IMG/VR virus record: IMGVR_UViG_2537561935_000012
From: a virus
Lineage: Duplodnaviria > Heunggongvirae > Uroviricota > Caudoviricetes
Length of the DNA: 64,000 nt
Strand: one strand, 5' to 3'
Below the pieces are notes generated by a model that was given only the letters and a program-made list of their open reading frames with translations, was not told the origin of the DNA and searched no databases. A program made the translations under genes and the position numbers. Below, piece after piece: positions 27,059 through 56,735 of this stretch (positions within the stretch are counted from its first letter, which is position 1; every line of letters begins with the position of its first letter).

Positions 27059-27134
27059 TGGTGGCCCCTACCGGACTTGAACCGGTGACCGTGCGATTAT
27101 GAGTCGCCAGCTCTAACCACTGAGCTAAAGGGCC
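27059..27134 (-). tRNA. tRNA-Ile2/Met-like, anticodon CAU
   Basis: 76-nt cloverleaf; loop CTCATAA; GGTTCAAGTCC T-arm; encoded CCA; close to E. coli ileX. Confidence 0.85.
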
Positions 27135-28565: not shown

Positions 28566-28641
28566 TGGTGCCGATTAACGGACTCGAACCGCTGACATCC
28601 TGCTTACAAGGCAGGCGCTCTACCAACTGAGCTAAACCGGC
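28566..28641 (-). tRNA. tRNA-Thr, anticodon UGU
   Basis: 76 nt; D-arm GCTCAGTTGGTAGAGC; loop CTTGTAA; encoded CCA. Confidence 0.85.
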
Positions 28642-28643
28642 AT

Positions 28644-28719
28644 TGGCGATGGTGGATGGATTTGAACCATCGACCCGTTGATTAACAGTCAACCGCTCTA
28701 ACCGCTGAGCTACACCATC
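28644..28719 (-). tRNA. tRNA-Asn, anticodon GUU
   Basis: 76 nt; loop CTGTTAA; T-arm GGTTCAAATCC; encoded CCA; 2 nt from tRNA-Thr. Confidence 0.85.
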
Positions 28720-33004: not shown

Positions 33005-33289
33005 GTGGCAAGTATTGCAACAAAAGACAGCATTTGTTCGGGGCACGGAGGATTCCCATCCAGGCCTCCTGTAGAGAGTGAACCACTACTTAAAGTCAAC
33101 GGAGTCGAAGTGTTAGTTGATGGTAAGCAATATGCACAGCATACCGATGGAAACAGTACGCACGGTGGGCAAGCTATATCAACCAGGGCATGGTTTACCG
33201 TCAATGGTAAAGGGATCGTATGCGTTGGTGACCCTGTTTCATGCGGATCTACCGTAGCGTCCGGAGACGGCCTGGTTCAGGTAAGTTAG
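33005..33289 (+). CDS. PAAR-like Gly/Cys-rich small protein (candidate)
   Basis: 94 aa, GTG start; SGHGG, THGG, CVGDPVSCGS motifs. Confidence 0.4.
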   Translation: MASIATKDSICSGHGGFPSRPPVESEPLLKVNGVEVLVDGKQYAQHTDGNSTHGGQAISTRAWFTVNGKGIVCVGDPVSCGSTVASGDGLVQVS

Positions 33290-44729: not shown

Positions 44730-44885
44730 TTACCTTTCAGATTCGTAGGCTGTGAAGACAGTGACCTCCGTCTGGCCGGTTCGGATTCGTACCTCGCAGA
44801 GGTCTTTCCTCGTTACCAGTGCCGTCACAATGACGGTTAAACAGATGACGATCAGAGCGATTAACATCGCTTTTTGCTGCTTCAT
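44730..44885 (-). CDS. hok: Hok/Gef-family type I toxin
   Basis: 51 aa, MKQQKAMLIALIVICLTVIVTALVTRKDLCEVRIRTGQTEVTVFTAYESER; matches Hok pattern ..TRK.LCE.R.R.G..EV..F.AYES; below track size cutoff. Confidence 0.7.
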   Translation of the reverse strand: MKQQKAMLIALIVICLTVIVTALVTRKDLCEVRIRTGQTEVTVFTAYESER

Positions 44886-44943
44886 AGCCTGCTTCTCCTT
44901 GACCTTTTGGTCGGTAAGAGGCTAATCTACGTATGCTAAGCAT
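44737..44943 (-). CDS. mok: Mok-like overlapping reading frame
   Basis: 68-aa ORF that starts upstream of and overlaps hok in another frame. Confidence 0.45.
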   Translation of the reverse strand: MLSIRRLASYRPKGQGEAGYEAAKSDVNRSDRHLFNRHCDGTGNEERPLRGTNPNRPDGGHCLHSLRI

Positions 44944-45066
44944 AGATATGGCCTCAGATTAATGTTAAGCGTCTTGCAGGACGCGTAATGTTATCTGGGG
45001 CTTTCTTCTATCTGCTTTTCGGGTAATGCCTGAAGCAGATAGCCTCAAGCACCCGCAACGATTGTA

Positions 45067-47203: not shown

Positions 47204-48250
47204 TTAACCTATTGCTACTGGTTTTAACAAACCAGCATCAAGTAGCTTGCGAGTTAACCACTGCTGGCCTTTACCCGTTAATTGGGGCGTCAGCCGTATC
47301 TGGTAGCCATTTTCATCATCCAGCACCACTTCTTTCACCGTGAAATACCCGGCGTTAATGTACTGCTGGCGCGGTACGTTTTTGCGCGCACCAAAAGCCA
47401 TGAGAATGCCGTTCTGGCGCAACCATGAGAAAAGGGCGTTTTGCTTAAGTCCAACGACCTTTGCAAAGTTCCCGATCAGGATTCCATTAGCCGCTGATAC
47501 CCGGTCGGCAAAATCGACTTTAGGGGCTGCGGCCACCAGCTGTTGTTCCAACTGCATTTTCTGTTCTGCCAACTCGGCAGCCAGGCGTAGAGCTTCTGGT
47601 AATGTTTGGGGGATCGATGGGGTAGGGGAGTTTGCCTGCTGCAATTCTTCCAGTTTGTCGATCAGCGAACGGCGGACCGCTTTCGATTCGCGAGCAGCAA
47701 CGCGCAGGGCTTGTTTGTATGTCATTACTATAACTACCTGATCCGCTCCACCTTTTTTCTTATCCATAGGGGTTACGAAGATTTCGTAACCCTCCCCATC
47801 AAGCTCATCCTTAACTCTGGCAATGAAATCATTGTTGCGAACTGGTTTTTCGCTACATAATTTCCGTGCCTCATTGACCATCTTTAACAGTGTCAGGCTG
47901 TCGATTGTGTCTCCGGTGTTGGGGATAATATTCACGGCTGGTGCTGGCGTAGCTGACGTAACAGGGGCTGGTTTTTCAACATTCAAATTATTACCGGTCA
48001 TTCTATGTGCCTCCTTTCTCATTTCTGCTGCCACTGTTGCGTAACGTAGACGTCCTTGTTCAATCAAATAATCCCTGATCTCGGCTATCAGTAGCCTGTT
48101 GATCACAGCCTTATCTGTTCGGGTATAAAAACGCCTGGTTATCATGAAATAGTTAGCAATTGCGCCGGGGATCTCCCGTGTCGGCATACAGGCAGTATGC
48201 AGGGCGATCGCTTCGGCTATGTCATTACGGGTGACGAGAGGTTTTTTCAT
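47204..48250 (-). CDS. ant: antirepressor Ant
   Basis: 348 aa; C-terminal antirepressor domain; follows icd. Confidence 0.7.
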   Translation of the reverse strand: MKKPLVTRNDIAEAIALHTACMPTREIPGAIANYFMITRRFYTRTDKAVINRLLIAEIRDYLIEQGRLRYATVAAEMRKEAHRMTGNNLNVEKPAPVTSATPAPAVNIIPNTGDTIDSLTLLKMVNEARKLCSEKPVRNNDFIARVKDELDGEGYEIFVTPMDKKKGGADQVVIVMTYKQALRVAARESKAVRRSLIDKLEELQQANSPTPSIPQTLPEALRLAAELAEQKMQLEQQLVAAAPKVDFADRVSAANGILIGNFAKVVGLKQNALFSWLRQNGILMAFGARKNVPRQQYINAGYFTVKEVVLDDENGYQIRLTPQLTGKGQQWLTRKLLDAGLLKPVAIG

Positions 48251-48479: not shown

Positions 48480-48640
48480 CGTAAGTTGATAAACAACCTG
48501 CGACCCGCTGCTAAACAGGTGGCAGGACGTGACGGGGTTAGCAGACTGGCACTTACGAAACCAGCAGGCCGAAGCCTCCCCATCACGCCCCACCATAATT
48601 CGGGCGTAACGTGGTTTACGGACACAAAAATACCGCAATA
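48480..48640 (-). ncRNA. c4: c4 antisense repressor RNA region (approximate)
   Basis: GC-rich hairpins between the operator and icd; boundaries not resolved. Confidence 0.3.
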
Positions 48641-48780: not shown

Positions 48781-48797
48781 AAATTTATTAGAGCATT
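48781..48797. promoter_or_regulatory. C1 operator-like site (16/17)
   Basis: aaatttattagagcatt between immI and the divergent AT-rich cassette. Confidence 0.6.
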
Positions 48798-48893
48798 GCT
48801 TGTTTAATAAATGCACAATTGGATCTAATAACCTCTTTTTTTTAAAGGCGAAAATATGTACCCTAAATGAGTTATAAGGCAGGTGAGGTTATA

Positions 48894-49385
48894 ATGAGAA
48901 AACTATTACTACCGTTATTATTTATGGCTGGGACTGTTAATGCAGCATCAAGCGTGAAGGAGATTTGTACCGATTATACGAAATACCTTGGGCACGTTTA
49001 CGGCTTTGCTGTCAGTCAAGACGAATCCATGCGCAAGAAGTTACTGTCAGATATGAAACGTCTTAAACTTTCTGAAGCGATGGTGCAGCAAGAACTATAT
49101 AAAGTCGCAACCAACGAAAATGCTAAATATCAATATTCTCGCCTATTAAATCCCGACGCAAACGAGATCAATCGAAGCACTTTCGATTATATGGTAAAGG
49201 CATGCGAAACCGCTCCTGATTTTGCTATCCCTAGCTGGGGTGTGCTGGTGGCGAGCAATGCCGTTAATAAAGAAGATGTTGGAAGAAATGGCATTGACTC
49301 AATAAGAAATGCCCCAGGAATGCGCCATCAAAACGTACAGGGTACGCTTGAAGAACGAGCCAGGGGGCCGGGTGTAGCCCCATAA
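48894..49385 (+). CDS. secreted protein with Sit-like C-terminal motif
   Basis: signal peptide MRKLLLPLLFMAGTVNA; C-terminus NAPGMRHQNVQGTLEERARGPG; low GC. Confidence 0.55.
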   Translation: MRKLLLPLLFMAGTVNAASSVKEICTDYTKYLGHVYGFAVSQDESMRKKLLSDMKRLKLSEAMVQQELYKVATNENAKYQYSRLLNPDANEINRSTFDYMVKACETAPDFAIPSWGVLVASNAVNKEDVGRNGIDSIRNAPGMRHQNVQGTLEERARGPGVAP

Positions 49386-49473
49386 TTTAATAAATAATAT
49401 TAAATTCTCTGGGCATAGTGGATCTAACAATATGGACTATGCCTATAATATCTAAAAACAAAAGGATAAAAAT

Positions 49474-49980
49474 ATGAAATTGTATAAGTCATTGTATAGC
49501 TTTTTATTAATGTCCTCTTTTCTGCCATTATCAGCAATGGCAGGTTCTACCGTTTGGACGGTAGGAGGGGAGCAAGGGTGGAGAGAAATCTCTGCAACCA
49601 ATGACGATGGTTACACAATTAACTTTTCTTGTGATGCTGGAGCAAGGGAAGGTTCAGAAGATCATATCGCTGGAAGAAATTTGTATGTAAGCGGAGGAAA
49701 AGAGAATGCCGATTTTTCTACACGCGACACAATATCACGTAAAGCAGATGTAATTACTTTAATTGTTGGCCCGGATAGTTTTAATATTGGCACGCAAAAC
49801 ACTGCTCCTAATCGTAGGGAATGGTATTCATTTTGGAAGGCAGTGTCATCTACAAATGAAAAAAACATAGATGTATATATCGGTTCGAGTCGAATCACAT
49901 CATTCACTCTGGATGGTATTTCCAGTATTTATACAGAAGCTAAAAATGACGGGTGTTTAAAACAAGATGACGGTGAATAA
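49474..49980 (+). CDS. secreted/periplasmic protein
   Basis: 168 aa; signal peptide ending SAMA; low GC. Confidence 0.55.
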   Translation: MKLYKSLYSFLLMSSFLPLSAMAGSTVWTVGGEQGWREISATNDDGYTINFSCDAGAREGSEDHIAGRNLYVSGGKENADFSTRDTISRKADVITLIVGPDSFNIGTQNTAPNRREWYSFWKAVSSTNEKNIDVYIGSSRITSFTLDGISSIYTEAKNDGCLKQDDGE

Positions 49981-51040
49981 AGTGAAGGATATTAAACACA
50001 TTTCGCTTAACTCTAATAATAAAGCTGAAGGCACTGCCTTTTATGATTATTTAAATGAAATTAAAGGAGTGAGGCATAAAAAGATAAGTGGTTTATTAAA
50101 TTCAGAATATATTTACAAGAGTTTAGTTAAACAGTTTGGAACAGTTAAAAAACAAGAATTAATTAATGATTGTTTTCGAAAAGAACTTGAGTCTTTACCA
50201 AAAGTTACGAGAATTGCACACCAGTTTCGTGAACAAATGGTATTTTTACAGAAACAGTATCAGGCGGCTTTTCCCAGTGATGCAAATGAGCATATTCAAA
50301 TAATTAAAAATCAAGCTGAAATGGCTATGCCGTTACGAAAACACTCAGAAGCCATTAATAAGATAGCTGGCTTAAATAATATGGAGGAGGTATTTAAAGA
50401 ATTACACTCTAATATAAATTACAAAATTAAGATAAGCAAAGATATTAAAGAAATAATAAAGCAGTATAATAAAACAAGAAGTGTATTATTAGAGCAAGTA
50501 GTAGAGCTTGGGCTTGTTACTATCGCGCAGGCTTATGCTAATGATTCTATAAAATCAGCGCATACCGAAAGTGAGCATCAAAACAAAGGATTTAATAAAT
50601 CTAGTTCGACGTTTTTTGATTCATTTAAGGCGCTTCCTTCTCCTATTCAGATCTTCCTTCTGTGGATTTTTTATCAAGTGGTGCTTGGCGCTATAACTGA
50701 TTATGCAAAAGAAAAGACATTATCGCAAATTTACAAGATGGAATCATATCTTCTATCTCTAAATGAGGATAAGCCAATATCTAAGCAAAAGCTAACACAA
50801 GAAAATAAAGATATTCAGTGGGAGGATCTTAATAATTTTAGAGCTATAACAGGTGATAACGTAAGGTTGCATGTCGGCCCTTCTTTAAATAGTGAAGTGA
50901 TTGAATGCATTGGCAAAAACACAATTGTTGCTATTTTAGATAAGAAAGATCGTCAATGGCTTTACGTGCAGGTTAAATCAGGGGATGAGTTTATTACTGG
51001 TTGGATTACACGAACATACACAAAGCCTCTTAAGGCTTGA
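49967..51040 (+). CDS. membrane-anchored protein with C-terminal SH3b-like domain
   Basis: 357 aa; TM helix IQIFLLWIFYQVVLGAI; C-terminal NVRLHVGPS...WLYVQV...GWI. Confidence 0.55.
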   Translation: MTVNKVKDIKHISLNSNNKAEGTAFYDYLNEIKGVRHKKISGLLNSEYIYKSLVKQFGTVKKQELINDCFRKELESLPKVTRIAHQFREQMVFLQKQYQAAFPSDANEHIQIIKNQAEMAMPLRKHSEAINKIAGLNNMEEVFKELHSNINYKIKISKDIKEIIKQYNKTRSVLLEQVVELGLVTIAQAYANDSIKSAHTESEHQNKGFNKSSSTFFDSFKALPSPIQIFLLWIFYQVVLGAITDYAKEKTLSQIYKMESYLLSLNEDKPISKQKLTQENKDIQWEDLNNFRAITGDNVRLHVGPSLNSEVIECIGKNTIVAILDKKDRQWLYVQVKSGDEFITGWITRTYTKPLKA

Positions 51041-51144
51041 ATTTTATCTCCGCATCTTCGGATTGGGTGTTGATGACGATGTGCTACTTGAAGCACTTGA
51101 GTTGTTTTAACGTAGTATCTGAAATGTGTAGACTGACCGGTAAC

Positions 51145-51163
51145 AAATGACAACTCGTAGAAT
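51145..51163 (+). promoter_or_regulatory. candidate late promoter
   Basis: AAATGACAA-ctcg-TAGAAT about 30 nt before the ATG at 51195; followed by a 5'-UTR hairpin. Confidence 0.4.
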
Positions 51164-51170
51164 CGGTTAA

Positions 51171-51761
<591 letters not shown>

Positions 51762-53360: not shown

Positions 53361-56300
53361 ATGGAAAGAAAAAACGCCAACATTGACGATGTTATAAGGA
53401 CAGTTGAAACCGCCAGCGCAAAAGAGCTGGAAGAGCTTGCAGGTATCCGGGAAGCTGTTGAAGATTTGAAAGGGGGACGCGTTGCAACTGTTGATCCTGT
53501 CTCTCACAGTGTGTCGGCATTAAATCGCACAATCGAAAATTCCAGGCCAGACTTTGTGGCCAATGCGCCATCAGTGGCCCCTATTGTTGAGGCAATGAAA
53601 CGGCTTAATTTAGGGGACGTTTCTCGTGTAGTTCAGGAGGATGTTGCTCTACAGGAACCGCAGGCCAAATCAACTACGCGAAAGGGTAAAAAACGACGCA
53701 AGAAGGCTATAACAGAAGATGTAAAGGCGCAACGGACCGAAGCAGCCGAACACGCTCGCGAAATGTTCGGTCAAAAAGGCGGTGCGCAAAAAAGCCAAAA
53801 CCAACGCGATGCGCGTGGTCGTTTTATTGGAAAGCCAGGGAGTAAGGCCGCAGCGGAAGATGCCCGTGCTGAACGTGCTGAAAAGGCCAGGCGCAAAGAG
53901 GATGATGAGCGTCTAAATGCTGAATCAGGTTTATTAAAAAAACTGTCAAAAGTAGCTGAAGGCATAGGTAACCCTTCAGAGACTCGCGCCGTCGATGCGT
54001 TAGGTTATGCCGTTGCTGGTCCATTGTGGGCCGCAGGGAAGGAGCTTGGCGGGATATCAAAAGAAGTTGGTGGATCGCTTAATGGTGCCAGAAAGTCTAT
54101 TGCCGATGTGATTCGTGGCAATGACGATAACAGCCGTAGAAAAGGTTTTTTTAGGCGTAAATCGCAAAATAGTGCCGATGTCGTTCAGGTTAACACCCAA
54201 AAACGGACGGTTCAGGAACTTCAGGATCAGACCAGCGAAATTAAAGAGGGCAATGACAAGATTCTCAGCGCCCTTGATCAGATAGCCAAAAACACCGGGA
54301 AAAAGAAGGGCGGCTTGCTGTCCAAATTATTTAGCCTGTTAGGGAAGGGGGCCGGTGGCGTCGCGTCGTTGTTAATGGGGCGTGGCATGCTGAAAAAAGC
54401 TGGAGCACTCGCTTTTGGCGCTCTGGGGGCAAAGAAACTTGTAGGAATGCTACGCGGTGGTGGCAAGAAGACTCTCGCCCATGAAGGCGGAGATTTGGCT
54501 GCCCGGGCAGCAGGTAAACTTGGATTAAAGGCAGTTGGTAAAGGGGCGTTACGCGCAATTCCCCTAGTCGGCACAGTGGCTGGAGGGATTTATGATGCGG
54601 TAACCGGTTGGAATGATACAGAAGCGCAACGTCGAGCGTTTGGGCTTAAATCAGGACAAGATCCATCATTCCAGCAAAAAGCCGCTTATACGTTAGCCAA
54701 TGTTCTTGATTTGGGGGGACTGGTATCTGGTATTAGCAGTGCTATTGGTGATGTTCTCAAATCACTTGGATTTGAGGATATCGGCAATATGTTGCAATCA
54801 TTTTCGACGGAAAGTATTGCCCAGGCCATTGATAGTGGGATTACCAACTTAGAAACATATATTTCTAACCTTGGCGACACCATTTCTACCAAGTTCGATG
54901 ATTACACAGCAAAGATTGGTGATGCTGTTTCAGCATGGTTTAGCGATACATCTAATAAGCTGCTTGAAAAGCTGGATGCCATCAAAGACTTCTTTACTGT
55001 CGATAACCTGAAACAGGTTTTCAGTGATGCAATTGATAGTGCAATTGATTTCATTAAGAACCCAGGGAAACACATTAAAGAGGCAGCTAGTAATATTTGG
55101 GATGGGGTTAAAAATTTACCAGGTAAAGCATTAGATGCAGCGGTTGATGCCGTTAAAAATACCCCTGCGGCAATGATTGTATCAAAAATACCCAATCCGA
55201 TCGGCGAGGCTAATGCGAAAGAAATCACTCCAGAGTTAAAAGCTCCGGTTAATAGCCAGCAGGGGACATCTGATTCTAAAGCTGAATCCGATGCCAAACA
55301 GACTAATATTGCTGCCCGCGTGATAAATGCGGCCCTGGATATGGCGAAAGATAGCAATAAAACAGTTAAAGAAACTGCTAATCAGATTATCAATGCAAAT
55401 GCCGTAGAAACAGGAAATAAAGCAGCACAAACAATTGATGCTGCCTTGGGCCAGTCTGCTACAGGTAAGGAGGAAGCATTAAGTGCATATGAGATAGATA
55501 AACGTCGATTTAACAATGGCAAGGATGTTTCTTTGCCAAAATTAAATGCTGCCGGATACCAATGGATTTCTGACAATGCCGATTATTTTGATGAGCTTGA
55601 ACGTAAGTATGGGCTTGAAAAAGGGATTCTGTCAGCAGTTGCATCCGCAGAGTCTAGTGCAGGCCAGAGAACTGGAAATCCAGTAGACAAAAACGGGAAC
55701 AAACTTTCATCTGCCCTTGGGGCTTTTCAGATCACTAAAGGTACAAGGGAGGATCTTGGACTCAGCGATGCTGATGCCATGGATACACGAAAAGCAGCTG
55801 ATGGTGCCGCCAGATACCTAAGTATGCTGATGAACCGTTATAACGGTGATCAGGGTCGTGCAATAGCTGCCTATCATGCTGGTATGGGGCATGTTGATAA
55901 GGGGAGAGTAGTCGCCGGTACCGGCGAATATGTTACTCGCGTCAGAGGGTATCAGCAGATGCTCAATAATGGTGCCGTTTATGGCTCTAAGGTAGATCAT
56001 AGCGCACCAGCAATTCACGAAAAGATACCTGATAACGCTGTTATCGATCAGTCTACTGGCCTGGCGTTTACCCCTGGTGATAGCCCGTTTGAGAAAGGCG
56101 GTCTGGTAGACAAAATTGGCAATGCTGTTGGTGTTAACGATCTGGTCAACAAATTCATGAATGGCCGGGGTATGCGTCGGGAAGTCGTTCAGGGAACGCT
56201 CGAAGAACGTGCACGAGGGAAGGGGACCGCAACAGCAGCTGGCAATGTGTATGTTGATACTCCGATGCCAGTTGAAGAGGCGCGTCCGGTGGCCAGCAAC

Positions 56301-56735
56301 TCAAGTTACTTTGACCAACTCGGCGCACAAATGGGGATTGATGGACTATTCTATAAACTCCGCAACTCGCCGGGGATGCGGAAAAATAATGCGCCTGAAC
56401 CAGCCTCCACGTCCCTGGTGACGACTGCCGCCAACGATTTGCAGCAACCAACCGGTCGTATGCAGATAGACGGACAGGTTATTAGTGATCTTGGCGGCTC
56501 CGGTGCCAAGCCGACAATGCAGTTGGCTGATAATACCGTTTCACTTGATGGTGAAACGAAGCGGCTGTTTGCGCAGATGACCTCATTGCTTGCCAGGATT
56601 GAAGAGCACACTAAAGACTCGGCGAAAGGCCAGGGAACTGTCGTAAAGGTCAGCACGCCTCAACCGGGCGTTATGCGCACGGTGCCACTGTCAATTGATG
56701 ATCCGTTGATGAATGACTACGCGAGAGTTGATTGA
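53361..56735 (+). CDS. sit: tape-measure/injection protein with lytic transglycosylase domain (Sit)
   Basis: 1124 aa; Gly-rich segments; SLT-like region AFQITKGTREDLGL...AAYHAG. Confidence 0.85.
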   Translation: MERKNANIDDVIRTVETASAKELEELAGIREAVEDLKGGRVATVDPVSHSVSALNRTIENSRPDFVANAPSVAPIVEAMKRLNLGDVSRVVQEDVALQEPQAKSTTRKGKKRRKKAITEDVKAQRTEAAEHAREMFGQKGGAQKSQNQRDARGRFIGKPGSKAAAEDARAERAEKARRKEDDERLNAESGLLKKLSKVAEGIGNPSETRAVDALGYAVAGPLWAAGKELGGISKEVGGSLNGARKSIADVIRGNDDNSRRKGFFRRKSQNSADVVQVNTQKRTVQELQDQTSEIKEGNDKILSALDQIAKNTGKKKGGLLSKLFSLLGKGAGGVASLLMGRGMLKKAGALAFGALGAKKLVGMLRGGGKKTLAHEGGDLAARAAGKLGLKAVGKGALRAIPLVGTVAGGIYDAVTGWNDTEAQRRAFGLKSGQDPSFQQKAAYTLANVLDLGGLVSGISSAIGDVLKSLGFEDIGNMLQSFSTESIAQAIDSGITNLETYISNLGDTISTKFDDYTAKIGDAVSAWFSDTSNKLLEKLDAIKDFFTVDNLKQVFSDAIDSAIDFIKNPGKHIKEAASNIWDGVKNLPGKALDAAVDAVKNTPAAMIVSKIPNPIGEANAKEITPELKAPVNSQQGTSDSKAESDAKQTNIAARVINAALDMAKDSNKTVKETANQIINANAVETGNKAAQTIDAALGQSATGKEEALSAYEIDKRRFNNGKDVSLPKLNAAGYQWISDNADYFDELERKYGLEKGILSAVASAESSAGQRTGNPVDKNGNKLSSALGAFQITKGTREDLGLSDADAMDTRKAADGAARYLSMLMNRYNGDQGRAIAAYHAGMGHVDKGRVVAGTGEYVTRVRGYQQMLNNGAVYGSKVDHSAPAIHEKIPDNAVIDQSTGLAFTPGDSPFEKGGLVDKIGNAVGVNDLVNKFMNGRGMRREVVQGTLEERARGKGTATAAGNVYVDTPMPVEEARPVASNSSYFDQLGAQMGIDGLFYKLRNSPGMRKNNAPEPASTSLVTTAANDLQQPTGRMQIDGQVISDLGGSGAKPTMQLADNTVSLDGETKRLFAQMTSLLARIEEHTKDSAKGQGTVVKVSTPQPGVMRTVPLSIDDPLMNDYARVD

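What the first reader, a model, noticed from the sequence alone, without database searches (positions are those of the whole stretch)
48781..51040. AT-rich cassette of secreted proteins beside immI, first protein ends in a Sit-like motif
Three plus-strand genes have much lower GC than the rest of the window and sit divergently between the immI operator and the tail operon. Two encode small signal-peptide proteins and the third a membrane-anchored protein with an SH3b-like domain. The first ends in ...NAPGMRHQNVQGTLEERARGPG, which matches GMRREVVQGTLEERARGKG and SPGMRKNNAPEP inside Sit (56155-56410) at protein but not DNA level. A periplasmic mimic of an injection-protein epitope is what a superinfection-exclusion decoy would look like. 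The canonical P1 sim locus maps near immI, so this could be a divergent sim-type module or a replacement.
Basis: partly seen in the sequence, partly recalled or inferred. Interest (0 to 1): 0.7.

Follow-up and report, generated by a model that had tools for sequence, protein, structure and literature searches.

The report
Variant P1 sim-slot envelope-protein cassette
This is an uncharacterised but common version of the variable "sim" (superinfection-exclusion) slot of P1-like phage-plasmids, whose first, exported protein carries a conserved peptide copied from the phage's own tape-measure/injection protein Sit, which suggests an entry-blocking role that nobody has tested.

Summary
Window 48781-51141 lies between the C1 operator Oc4 and the late promoter LPsit/pmgC. 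That is exactly where P1 carries simA-simB-simC, in the same orientation.

- **ORF1** (163-172 aa, signal peptide) is a longer form of SimA. P1's 52-aa SimA is only the first 50 codons of this family, which reaches 224 aa in phage Ro157c2YLVW.
- **ORF2** (168 aa, signal peptide) belongs to the YfjT/YkfB family.
- **ORF3** (357 aa) has a variable helical N-terminal region, one membrane helix and a C-terminal SH3b domain.
- There is no SimB or SimC homologue, so the experimentally defined Sim protein is absent.

The Sit-like motif is real: 11 identical residues in a row, and none of 2000 shuffles reached the alignment score. It is the best-conserved part of SimA-long, even in a relative only 40% identical. 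It is also conserved in P1-like and D6-like Sit. Codons differ mostly at synonymous sites, which indicates selection rather than recent copying.

The cassette is widespread, on about 31 of 5426 complete E. coli genomes and in hundreds of assemblies, and the slot's variability is published. The decoy function remains an untested inference. The Sit–SimA motif appears to be unreported and is worth an experiment.

The parts
48781..48797 (-). C1 operator Oc4 (Op51) of immI; left edge of the finding
   Evidence: It aligns base for base with the annotated P1 Oc4. The reverse complement reads AATGCTCTAATAAATTT.
48803..48829 (+). Position equivalent to P1's predicted sigma-70 promoter PsimA
   Evidence: Taken from the P1 annotation. 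The alignment across this stretch has a mean column identity of 98%. The promoter is a prediction, not a demonstration.
48867..49385 (+). ORF1 = SimA-long, truncated form (172 aa from 48867; probable true start 48894, 163 aa). Exported protein with a helical core plus a Sit-like tail.
   Evidence: - phrog_3933, E 2e-114, covering profile positions 1-162 of 213.
- The first 50 aa are 94% identical to P1 SimA, and aa 1-169 are 99% identical to the 224-aa Ro157c2YLVW protein.
- Sources name the family 'simA domain protein'.
48894..48944 (+). Predicted Sec signal peptide of ORF1 (MRKLLLPLLFMAGTVNA|A)
   Evidence: Read from the sequence. Most family members start at this Met, and a GGTGAGG Shine-Dalgarno-like sequence lies upstream.
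49308..49373 (+). Sit-like motif NAPGMRHQNVQGTLEERARGPG at the C-terminus of ORF1
   Evidence: It is 16/22 identical in the most divergent family member, P0074, which is 40% identical overall.
49374..51133 (+). Low-GC segment (34.4%) that replaces the 3' end of simA-long and the neighbouring gene of Ro157-type phages. Relative to P1, the replaced interval is 49034-51141.
   Evidence: BLASTN breakpoints come and GC content.
49474..49980 (+). ORF2, a YfjT/YkfB-family exported protein (168 aa; signal peptide 49474-49542; two conserved Cys)
   Evidence: - phrog_3429, E 2e-71.
- Precomputed PF27224 (YfjT) on P0066, which is 95% identical.
- RefSeq name 'YfjT/YkfB family phage-associated protein'.
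- 29% identical to the Ro157 ORF2.
49967..51040 (+). ORF3, a bitopic membrane protein (357 aa). It has a variable helical N-terminal region, a membrane helix at about 50630-50704 and an SH3b domain at 50855-51019. Its start overlaps the end of ORF2 by 14 nt.
   Evidence: - phrog_7086, E 1e-225.
- SH3_3, E 3e-6.
- The family alignment shows a near-invariant C-terminal 140 aa and a variable N-terminus.
- dN/dS is about 0.55 in the N-terminal part and 0.2-0.3 in the C-terminal part.
51145..51163 (+). Late promoter LPsit (-22 box AAATGACAA, -10 TAGAAT); right boundary of the variable slot
   Evidence: It aligns to the annotated P1 LPsit with one mismatch.
51195..51761 (+). pmgC, first gene of the conserved pmgC-tub-pmgB-sit operon
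   Evidence: The 188-aa protein is 98.9% identical to P1 pmgC by tblastn.
53361..56735 (+). sit: tape-measure / injection transglycosylase (1124 aa; SLT domain aa 742-847)
56160..56225 (+). Sit motif 1, NGRGMRREVVQGTLEERARGKG; counterpart of the ORF1 tail
   Evidence: It is conserved in D6-like Sit as APGMRHQVVQGTLAERAYGRGT.
56334..56402 (+). Sit motif 2, GIDGLFYKLRNSPGMRKNNAPEP. It is a partial repeat of motif 1 inside an insertion of about 43 aa that D6-like Sit lacks.

Best explanation
**Shown, about 0.95 confidence.** The region is one allele of the hypervariable sim slot of P1-like phage-plasmids.
- The slot is bounded by Oc4/PsimA on the left and LPsit/pmgC on the right.
- Every allele examined encodes exported or membrane proteins.
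- The ancestral-looking content is a pair: SimA-long plus a YfjT-like protein. P1 simA is a 5' remnant of SimA-long.
- In this window a low-GC segment carrying a different YfjT-like allele plus an SH3b membrane protein has replaced everything after codon 169 of simA-long. The cut falls immediately after the Sit-like motif.

**Inferred mechanism.** The cassette is expressed from the prophage and acts in the cell envelope against incoming P1-like phages, at the step between adsorption and DNA entry.
- After export, SimA-long displays a 22-36-residue copy of a conserved segment of the tape-measure/injection protein Sit, on a C-terminal tail with no secondary structure in the (low-confidence) AlphaFold model.
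- The copy either competes for whatever that Sit segment binds in the periplasm or inner membrane, or binds the ejected Sit itself. Either would block wall penetration or channel formation.
- ORF2 and ORF3 overlap at their junction and may be translationally coupled. They would act with SimA-long or in parallel, with ORF3 anchored in the inner membrane and its SH3b domain facing the peptidoglycan.
For: **Position and orientation.**
- They are identical to P1 simABC.

**Relation to SimA.**
- P1 SimA equals the first 50 aa of ORF1.

**Survey of 69 IMG/VR loci**:
- SimA52-SimB-SimC: about 19 loci.
- SimA224-YfjT-like: about 23.
- SimA172-YfjT-like-SH3: about 15.
- D6-like SimA-long plus YfjT-like: 5.

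**Other alleles.**
- P7 carries a lipoprotein plus DUF5384. The L074 type carries a multi-TM protein, a YfjT-like protein and an SH3 protein. All are envelope proteins.

**Motif.**
- Identical residues are encoded by different codons (40/57 nt).
- It is 16/22 conserved in a family member only 40% identical overall.
- The Ro157 SimA-long tail is 21/29 identical to D6-like Sit.
- The tail has no secondary structure in the AlphaFold model, which is low confidence.

**Precedents.**
- P1 Sim blocks superinfection and may prevent DNA injection (Devlin 1982 and Kliem & Dreiseikelmann 1989, as cited in PMC8546580).
- T4 Imm binds the tape-measure protein (bioRxiv 10.64898/2026.03.06.709160).
- T4 Spackle is a periplasmic inhibitor of the tail lysozyme (PMC7677548).
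Against: - There is no functional data for SimA-long, the YfjT-like proteins or the SH3 protein.
- The only protein of this slot annotated with the superimmunity function itself (SimC) has no homologue here.
- P1 has lost the motif-bearing part of simA without apparent cost, and simA knock-down does not affect plaque formation (PMC10695390).
- One SimA sub-lineage keeps only NAPGMR[HQ]Q and replaces the rest with a Cys-containing tail.
- There is no tight co-variation between a prophage's SimA motif and its own Sit motif in P1-like elements.
- No hits were found in PADLOC, NCBIfam or the PDB.
- Both structure models were unusable (pLDDT 40-45).
Confidence: 0.4

Rival explanations
1. The cassette is generic envelope cargo. 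The slot collects lysogenic-conversion or anti-phage genes that act on other phages or on host physiology. For example, ORF3 could be a membrane sensor or abortive-infection protein, and ORF2 a YfjT-type periplasmic protein as found in cryptic E. coli prophages. On this reading the cassette does not exclude P1, and the Sit motif is incidental to its function.
For: - The slot is a published low-GC variable region (PMC9603915).
- It takes up unrelated cargo: DUF4760 in L004, lipoprotein plus DUF5384 in P7, and a multi-TM protein in L074.
- By its family name, ORF2's relatives include chromosomal cryptic-prophage genes (YfjT/YkfB).
- The N-terminal domain of ORF3 evolves fast, as arms-race proteins do.
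Against: - No PADLOC hit.
- SimA-long, ORF2 and ORF3 were found essentially only in P1/D6-like elements and always in this slot.
- This reading does not explain why the Sit-derived peptide is the best-conserved part of SimA-long.
Confidence: 0.3
2. The motif is a relic. A fragment of sit was once captured into the neighbouring slot, and ORF1 in this window is a decaying remnant like P1 simA, with no present function.
For: - P1 retains only 50 codons of the gene, and the window allele is itself truncated at codon 169.
- A few database members carry frameshifts (P0003, P0007, P0008).
Against: - The 163/172-aa ORF is intact in all 15 window-type IMG/VR loci and in hundreds of assemblies.
- Motif residues are kept while codons diverge.
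- The motif survives at 73% identity in a homologue that is 40% identical overall.
Confidence: 0.12
3. The proteins serve the phage's own lytic cycle rather than exclusion. They might modulate peptidoglycan or lysis, or neutralise free Sit transglycosylase in the periplasm of the producing or lysogenic cell. The motif would then be a shared docking peptide for the SLT domain or for peptidoglycan.
For: - The motif lies about 90 residues after the SLT domain of Sit.
- ORF3 carries a peptidoglycan-type SH3b domain.
- The cassette sits directly upstream of the late operon that encodes Sit.
Against: - The slot lies upstream of LPsit, and in P1 it has its own predicted sigma-70 promoters.
- Sit is assembled in the cytoplasm, so it cannot meet a periplasmic protein before lysis.
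- The P1 sim genes are dispensable for plaque formation.
Confidence: 0.1

Closest known systems
Phage P1 sim operon (simA-simB-simC; superimmunity / superinfection exclusion)
   Same: - Same slot, orientation and upstream region (mean column identity 98% across Oc4/PsimA).
- Same right boundary at LPsit.
- The first 50 codons of ORF1 equal simA.
- All products are exported proteins, and the DNA is low in GC.
   Different: - No SimB or SimC homologue.
- ORF1 is more than three times longer than P1 SimA and carries the Sit-like tail.
- ORF2 and ORF3 belong to unrelated families.
- No exclusion phenotype has been shown.
SimA-long + YfjT-like pair of phage vB_EcoM-Ro157c2YLVW (NC_050153) and D6-like plasmid prophages
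   Same: - ORF1 is 99% identical over aa 1-169.
- ORF2 belongs to the same family (phrog_3429).
- Same slot.
   Different: - Here ORF1 lacks the last 55 residues or so.
- ORF2 is a 29%-identical allele.
- ORF3 is an addition.
T4 Spackle (periplasmic inhibitor of tail-spike lysozyme gp5), PMC7677548
   Same: It is a small signal-peptide protein made by the resident phage. It acts in the periplasm on the wall-degrading part of the incoming tail (abstract). Sit carries the equivalent SLT domain.
   Different: - No sequence relationship.
- Spackle binds the enzyme domain as a folded inhibitor, not through a copied peptide.
- No binding has been shown here.
T4 Imm binding the tape-measure protein (bioRxiv 10.64898/2026.03.06.709160); Ltp of Streptococcus phage TP-J34 (PMC3952083) and HK97 gp15 (own knowledge)
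   Same: T4 Imm, a virus-encoded superinfection-exclusion protein, binds the tape-measure protein. That Ltp and HK97 gp15 also act through the tape-measure protein is from my own knowledge.
   Different: - Those proteins are unrelated in sequence and do not resemble their target.
- Here the candidate carries a segment homologous to the target itself.
E. coli K-12 cryptic-prophage proteins YfjT/YkfB (PF27224)
   Same: ORF2 belongs to this family according to precomputed Pfam hits and RefSeq naming.
   Different: The family has no known function (literature search). The local Pfam copy lacks the model, so the assignment could not be recomputed.

Membership tests
P1 Sim superinfection-exclusion system (SimC-based) | Located between the immI operator Oc4 and LPsit/pmgC, and transcribed away from c4 | tested here: met
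P1 Sim superinfection-exclusion system (SimC-based) | Encodes a homologue of SimC, the processed periplasmic Sim protein | tested here: not met
   BLASTP gives no hit. hhalign probabilities are at most 1.7% for SimA-long, ORF2 and ORF3 against SimB and SimC.
P1 Sim superinfection-exclusion system (SimC-based) | Blocks P1 infection after adsorption when expressed | not testable with these tools
   This needs plating, adsorption and DNA-entry assays.
SimA family (phrog_3933; 'simA domain protein') | Full-length similarity to the family profile, including the SimA N-terminus | tested here: met
   E 2e-114 over profile positions 1-162 of 213, so the protein is C-terminally truncated. It is 94% identical to P1 SimA over 50 aa.
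YfjT/YkfB family (PF27224) | Match to the family model | tested here: inconclusive
   A precomputed PF27224 hit exists on P0066, which is 95% identical to ORF2, and RefSeq uses the family name. The local Pfam copy gave no hit and seems to lack the model.
Bacterial SH3 domain (SH3_3, PF08239) | Score above the Pfam gathering cut-off | tested here: met
   27.7 bits against a cut-off of 27, for aa 297-351. This is marginal, but the same domain is recorded across the family.
PTP-like phytase domain (PF14566) | Score above the cut-off and a CX5R catalytic loop | tested here: not met
   26.8 bits against a cut-off of 27. The invariant Cys113 sits in CETAPDF, with no Arg. The PDB profile search found no phosphatase.
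Sit / tape-measure family (phrog_2533) | Similarity along the protein, not only a short segment | tested here: not met
   ORF1 matches only profile positions 928-963 of 1130. It shares a motif but is not a member.
Known anti-phage defence systems (PADLOC-DB 2.0) | Match to any component model | tested here: not met
   No hit for ORF1, ORF2, ORF3 or the Ro157 homologues.

The most novel reading that the evidence does not exclude
SimA-long is a periplasmic mimic of the phage's own tape-measure/injection protein. A prophage exports a copy of a conserved Sit segment, and that copy titrates Sit's envelope partner or poisons assembly of the ejected Sit. This would be superinfection exclusion by target mimicry, a mechanism not described for any phage. 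The textbook P1 simA would then be the stump of that gene, with SimC a later replacement.
Probability: 0.2. Interest if true: 0.7.

Novelty: new variant of a known kind. Interest (0 to 1): 0.45.

Why it matters
P1 is a model phage, and how its DNA enters the cell and how Sim blocks that entry are still unknown. Three points follow from this analysis:
- simA turns out to be a remnant of a conserved exported protein.
- That protein carries a selected copy of a Sit segment.
- Together these give a concrete, cheap experiment that could identify both a new exclusion mechanism and the functionally important part of Sit.

P1-like phage-plasmids also spread resistance genes in Enterobacteriaceae. Exclusion alleles at this slot would influence which of these elements can co-infect and recombine.

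Tried and rejected
- **Structure prediction.** AlphaFold2 models of ORF3 (pLDDT 40) and ORF1 (pLDDT 45) were too poor. No fold search was run, because the matches would be meaningless.
- **Family and structure libraries.** NCBIfam and PADLOC gave no hits. PDB sequence and profile searches for ORF1, ORF3 and Sit gave nothing usable.
- **Remote homologues of SimA-long.** An exhaustive HMM search of 1.84 billion representatives found only 11 clusters, all from the same narrow family.
- **Link to SimB/SimC.** hhalign found no relationship between SimA-long, ORF2 or ORF3 and SimB or SimC.
- **PTP-like phytase.** The hit for ORF1 was rejected: it is below the cut-off and there is no catalytic motif.
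- **Motif elsewhere.**
  - The stricter pattern found only 5 loci in 185,579 species genomes, all P1-like.
  - So the motif is lineage-specific rather than a general tape-measure feature. The pattern is narrow, however, and would miss divergent copies.
- **Context of the most divergent SimA (P0074).** The contigs are only about 1.2 kb, so its Sit partner could not be read.
- **Promoter scan.** The consensus scan of the cassette found no more sites than shuffled sequence.
- **Slot allele versus Sit SLT allele.** There is an association, but I attribute it to linkage between sites 5 kb apart in related genomes, not to function.
- **Literature.**
  - No paper on this cassette or on a SimA–Sit motif was found.
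  - The P1 genome paper (Lobocka 2004) is not in the held library.
Full report
**What the window is.** The window is a P1-like phage-plasmid. The stretch around the finding matches P1, P7 and related Punavirus genomes at 95-98% identity on both sides. In the middle it matched none of the 50,697 phage records. On the left lie ant (47204-48250, minus strand), icd, the C4 antisense RNA (48515-48600) and its a1/b1 targets. The C1 operator Oc4 follows at 48781-48797. On the right lie the late promoter LPsit (51145-51163, one mismatch to P1) and pmgC-tub-pmgB-sit. In P1 the interval between Oc4 and LPsit holds simA, simB and simC, transcribed in this same direction. The finding is therefore the sim slot.

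**Check of the observation.** Three plus-strand ORFs are present.
- GC content is 43.7% for ORF1, 38.7% for ORF2 and 32.6% for ORF3, against 47.4% for the window. The drop is marked for ORF2 and ORF3 and slight for ORF1.
- ORF1 and ORF2 begin with canonical Sec signal peptides (…TVNA|ASS and …SAMA|GST).
- The start of ORF1 is probably the Met at 48894. It has a Shine-Dalgarno-like sequence, and most relatives and RefSeq use it.
- ORF3 has no signal peptide. It has one hydrophobic helix (about aa 222-246) and a C-terminal SH3_3 domain. Charge distribution around the helix suggests the N-terminus is cytoplasmic and the SH3 domain periplasmic; this is an inference.

**The shared motif.** ORF1 aa 148-169 and Sit aa 934-955 share 11 consecutive identical residues.
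- BLASTP gives E 2e-7.
- None of 2000 shuffles reached the alignment score.
- ORF1 independently hits the Sit family profile at the same place.
- At the DNA level the core is 40/57 identical, and most differences are synonymous.

**What the genes are.**
- *ORF1.* It is 99% identical over aa 1-169 to a 224-aa protein of phage vB_EcoM-Ro157c2YLVW. Its first 50 residues are 94% identical to the whole of P1 SimA, which is 52 aa. P1 simA is thus the 5' stump of a longer gene, which I call SimA-long (phrog_3933).
- *Size of the SimA-long family.* It is very small: 23 clusters at 90% identity, and 11 representatives at 50% identity among 1.84 billion proteins. Wherever context could be read it sits on P1- or D6-like elements.
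- *ORF2.* It belongs to phrog_3429, that is the YfjT/YkfB family. It is 29% identical to the gene that follows SimA-long in Ro157c2YLVW.
- *ORF3.* It belongs to phrog_7086. Its last 140 residues or so (membrane helix plus SH3) are nearly invariant across 42 clusters. The N-terminal 220-320 residues are helical, repeat-rich and highly variable, with dN/dS about 0.55 against 0.2-0.3 for the C-terminal part.
- *SimB and SimC.* None of the three proteins is related to SimB or SimC.

**The slot as a whole.** I fetched 69 IMG/VR loci through the SimA N-terminus and classified the content between simA and pmgC.

| Architecture | Loci |
|---|---|
| SimA52-SimB-SimC (P1 type) | about 19 |
| SimA224 + YfjT-like | about 23 |
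| SimA163/172 + YfjT-like + SH3 protein (window type) | about 15 |
| D6-like SimA-long (179-261 aa) + YfjT-like | 5 |
| SimA221 + SimC | 1 |

- Further alleles exist.
  - A multi-TM protein plus a YfjT-like protein plus the SH3 protein.
  - A lipoprotein plus DUF5384 in P7.
  - The window type with an added DUF4760 gene.
- All of these alleles encode exported or membrane proteins.
- Breakpoints are sharp. Against P1 they fall at 49033 and 51142; against Ro157 at 49373 and 51134. The right boundary is always just before LPsit. The left breakpoint of the window type falls immediately after the motif, leaving ...RGPG followed by VAP and a stop codon.
- The window-type cassette is common.
  - 34 PLSDB plasmids hold at least 80% of it.
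  - 31 of 5426 complete E. coli genomes hold at least 80% of it.
  - The ORF2 cluster is listed in about 1800 blocks of the assembly index.
- The variability and low GC of the simABC region have been published (PMC9603915).

**The motif in depth.**
- In Sit, motif 1 lies about 90 residues after the SLT domain (aa 742-847). It is conserved between P1-like and D6-like Sit, whose C-terminal regions are otherwise about 55% identical.
- The D6-like version, APGMRHQVVQGTLAERAYGRGTTTTMGN, is 21/29 identical to the Ro157 SimA-long tail. The homology therefore runs beyond the truncation point of the window protein.
- Motif 2 of Sit sits in a 43-aa insertion specific to P1-like Sit and repeats the first half of motif 1.
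- Within SimA-long the motif is the best-conserved segment. The most divergent member, P0074, is 40% identical overall but 16/22 identical in the motif.
- A second SimA sub-lineage keeps only NAPGMR[HQ]Q and continues with a two-Cys tail. One member (P0072) has both the full motif and the Cys tail.
- A strict motif pattern occurs in only 5 loci among 185,579 species genomes, all P1-like. The motif is lineage-specific.

**Mechanism.**
- *Shown:* the slot identity, the mosaic history, the predicted envelope location and the selected Sit-derived peptide.
- *Inferred:* the cassette acts in the envelope against incoming P1-like phages, and the SimA-long tail interferes with Sit or its partner.
- *Precedents:*
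  - P1 Sim itself (references in PMC8546580).
  - T4 Imm binding the tape-measure protein.
  - T4 Spackle inhibiting the tail lysozyme.
  - Ltp targeting a tape-measure protein.
- *Against:*
  - SimC, the protein annotated with the superimmunity function, is absent here.
  - P1 has lost the motif-bearing part of simA.
  - The sim genes are dispensable for plaque formation.
  - No co-variation between SimA and the resident Sit is seen.
  - No structural model could be obtained.
- *My estimates:* about 0.4 that the cassette has an exclusion or entry-blocking function, and about 0.2 for mimicry specifically.

**Novelty and verdict.** The cassette and the variable slot are known as sequence, and the cassette genes are annotated only by domain or family names or as hypothetical. 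The interpretation of simA as a remnant is implicit in the database name 'simA domain protein'. My searches found no paper describing the SimA–Sit shared motif or its pattern of conservation. I rate the region a new variant of a known kind, of moderate interest, with a clear experiment attached.

Noticed in passing
L004 4363-5325 (CP057476.1 42311-43273), minus strand: One plasmid with the window-type cassette has an extra DUF4760 gene (Pfam E 1e-13) inserted between ORF3 and LPsit on the opposite strand. The slot is still gaining cargo.
   Followed up: partly
L074 7077-9035 (GCA_011828725.1 contig AAQXWD010000017.1): Another slot allele has no simA. It carries a 116-aa multi-TM protein, a YfjT-like 158-aa protein (36% identical to the Ro157 ORF2) and an SH3 protein of 344 aa (62% identical to ORF3).
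   Followed up: partly
window 55584-55901 (Sit SLT domain, aa 742-847) and the Sit genes of loci L005-L073: The SLT domain of Sit exists as two very different alleles among P1-like elements. The window-type cassette goes mostly with the P1-type allele (11:2), the Ro157-type slot with the other (21:0), and simABC mostly with the other (14:2). This is probably linkage.
   Followed up: partly
window 56334-56402: The second PGMR motif of Sit lies inside an insertion of about 43 aa that D6-like Sit lacks. It looks like a partial internal duplication of motif 1.
   Followed up: partly
window 44730-45054, minus strand: A hok-like 51-aa ORF (44730-44885) and a sok antitoxin RNA (44880-45054; Rfam 114.9 bits) lie next to repL, in the rlf variable region of P1-like elements.
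   Followed up: no
window 49967-50611 (ORF3 aa 1-215): The N-terminal, presumably cytoplasmic, part of ORF3 is only 43-46% identical between alleles, while the flanking cassette is about 95% identical. dN/dS is about 0.55 there against 0.2-0.3 for the TM+SH3 part.
   Followed up: partly
L079 1-913 / L080; window 33005-33289: The most divergent SimA-long (P0074, on metagenome contigs of about 1.2 kb) does not lie next to immI. It lies divergently beside a 72%-identical homologue of a 94-aa, PAAR-like ORF of this window.
   Followed up: no
L088 and L092: Two metagenome-assembled 'genomes' labelled Paenibacillus and Bacillota contain P1-like simA or sit sequence on short contigs. This is probably mis-binning.
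   Followed up: no
window 49400-49455 and 51148-51194: Two inverted repeats were seen. One (20-nt arms, 75% complementary) lies in the ORF1-ORF2 spacer just past the recombination junction. The other (17-nt arms, 88% complementary) spans the LPsit -10 region to the pmgC ribosome-binding site.
   Followed up: no
window 27062-27134, 28569-28641, 28647-28719, minus strand: Three tRNA genes, as expected for a P1-like genome.
   Followed up: no
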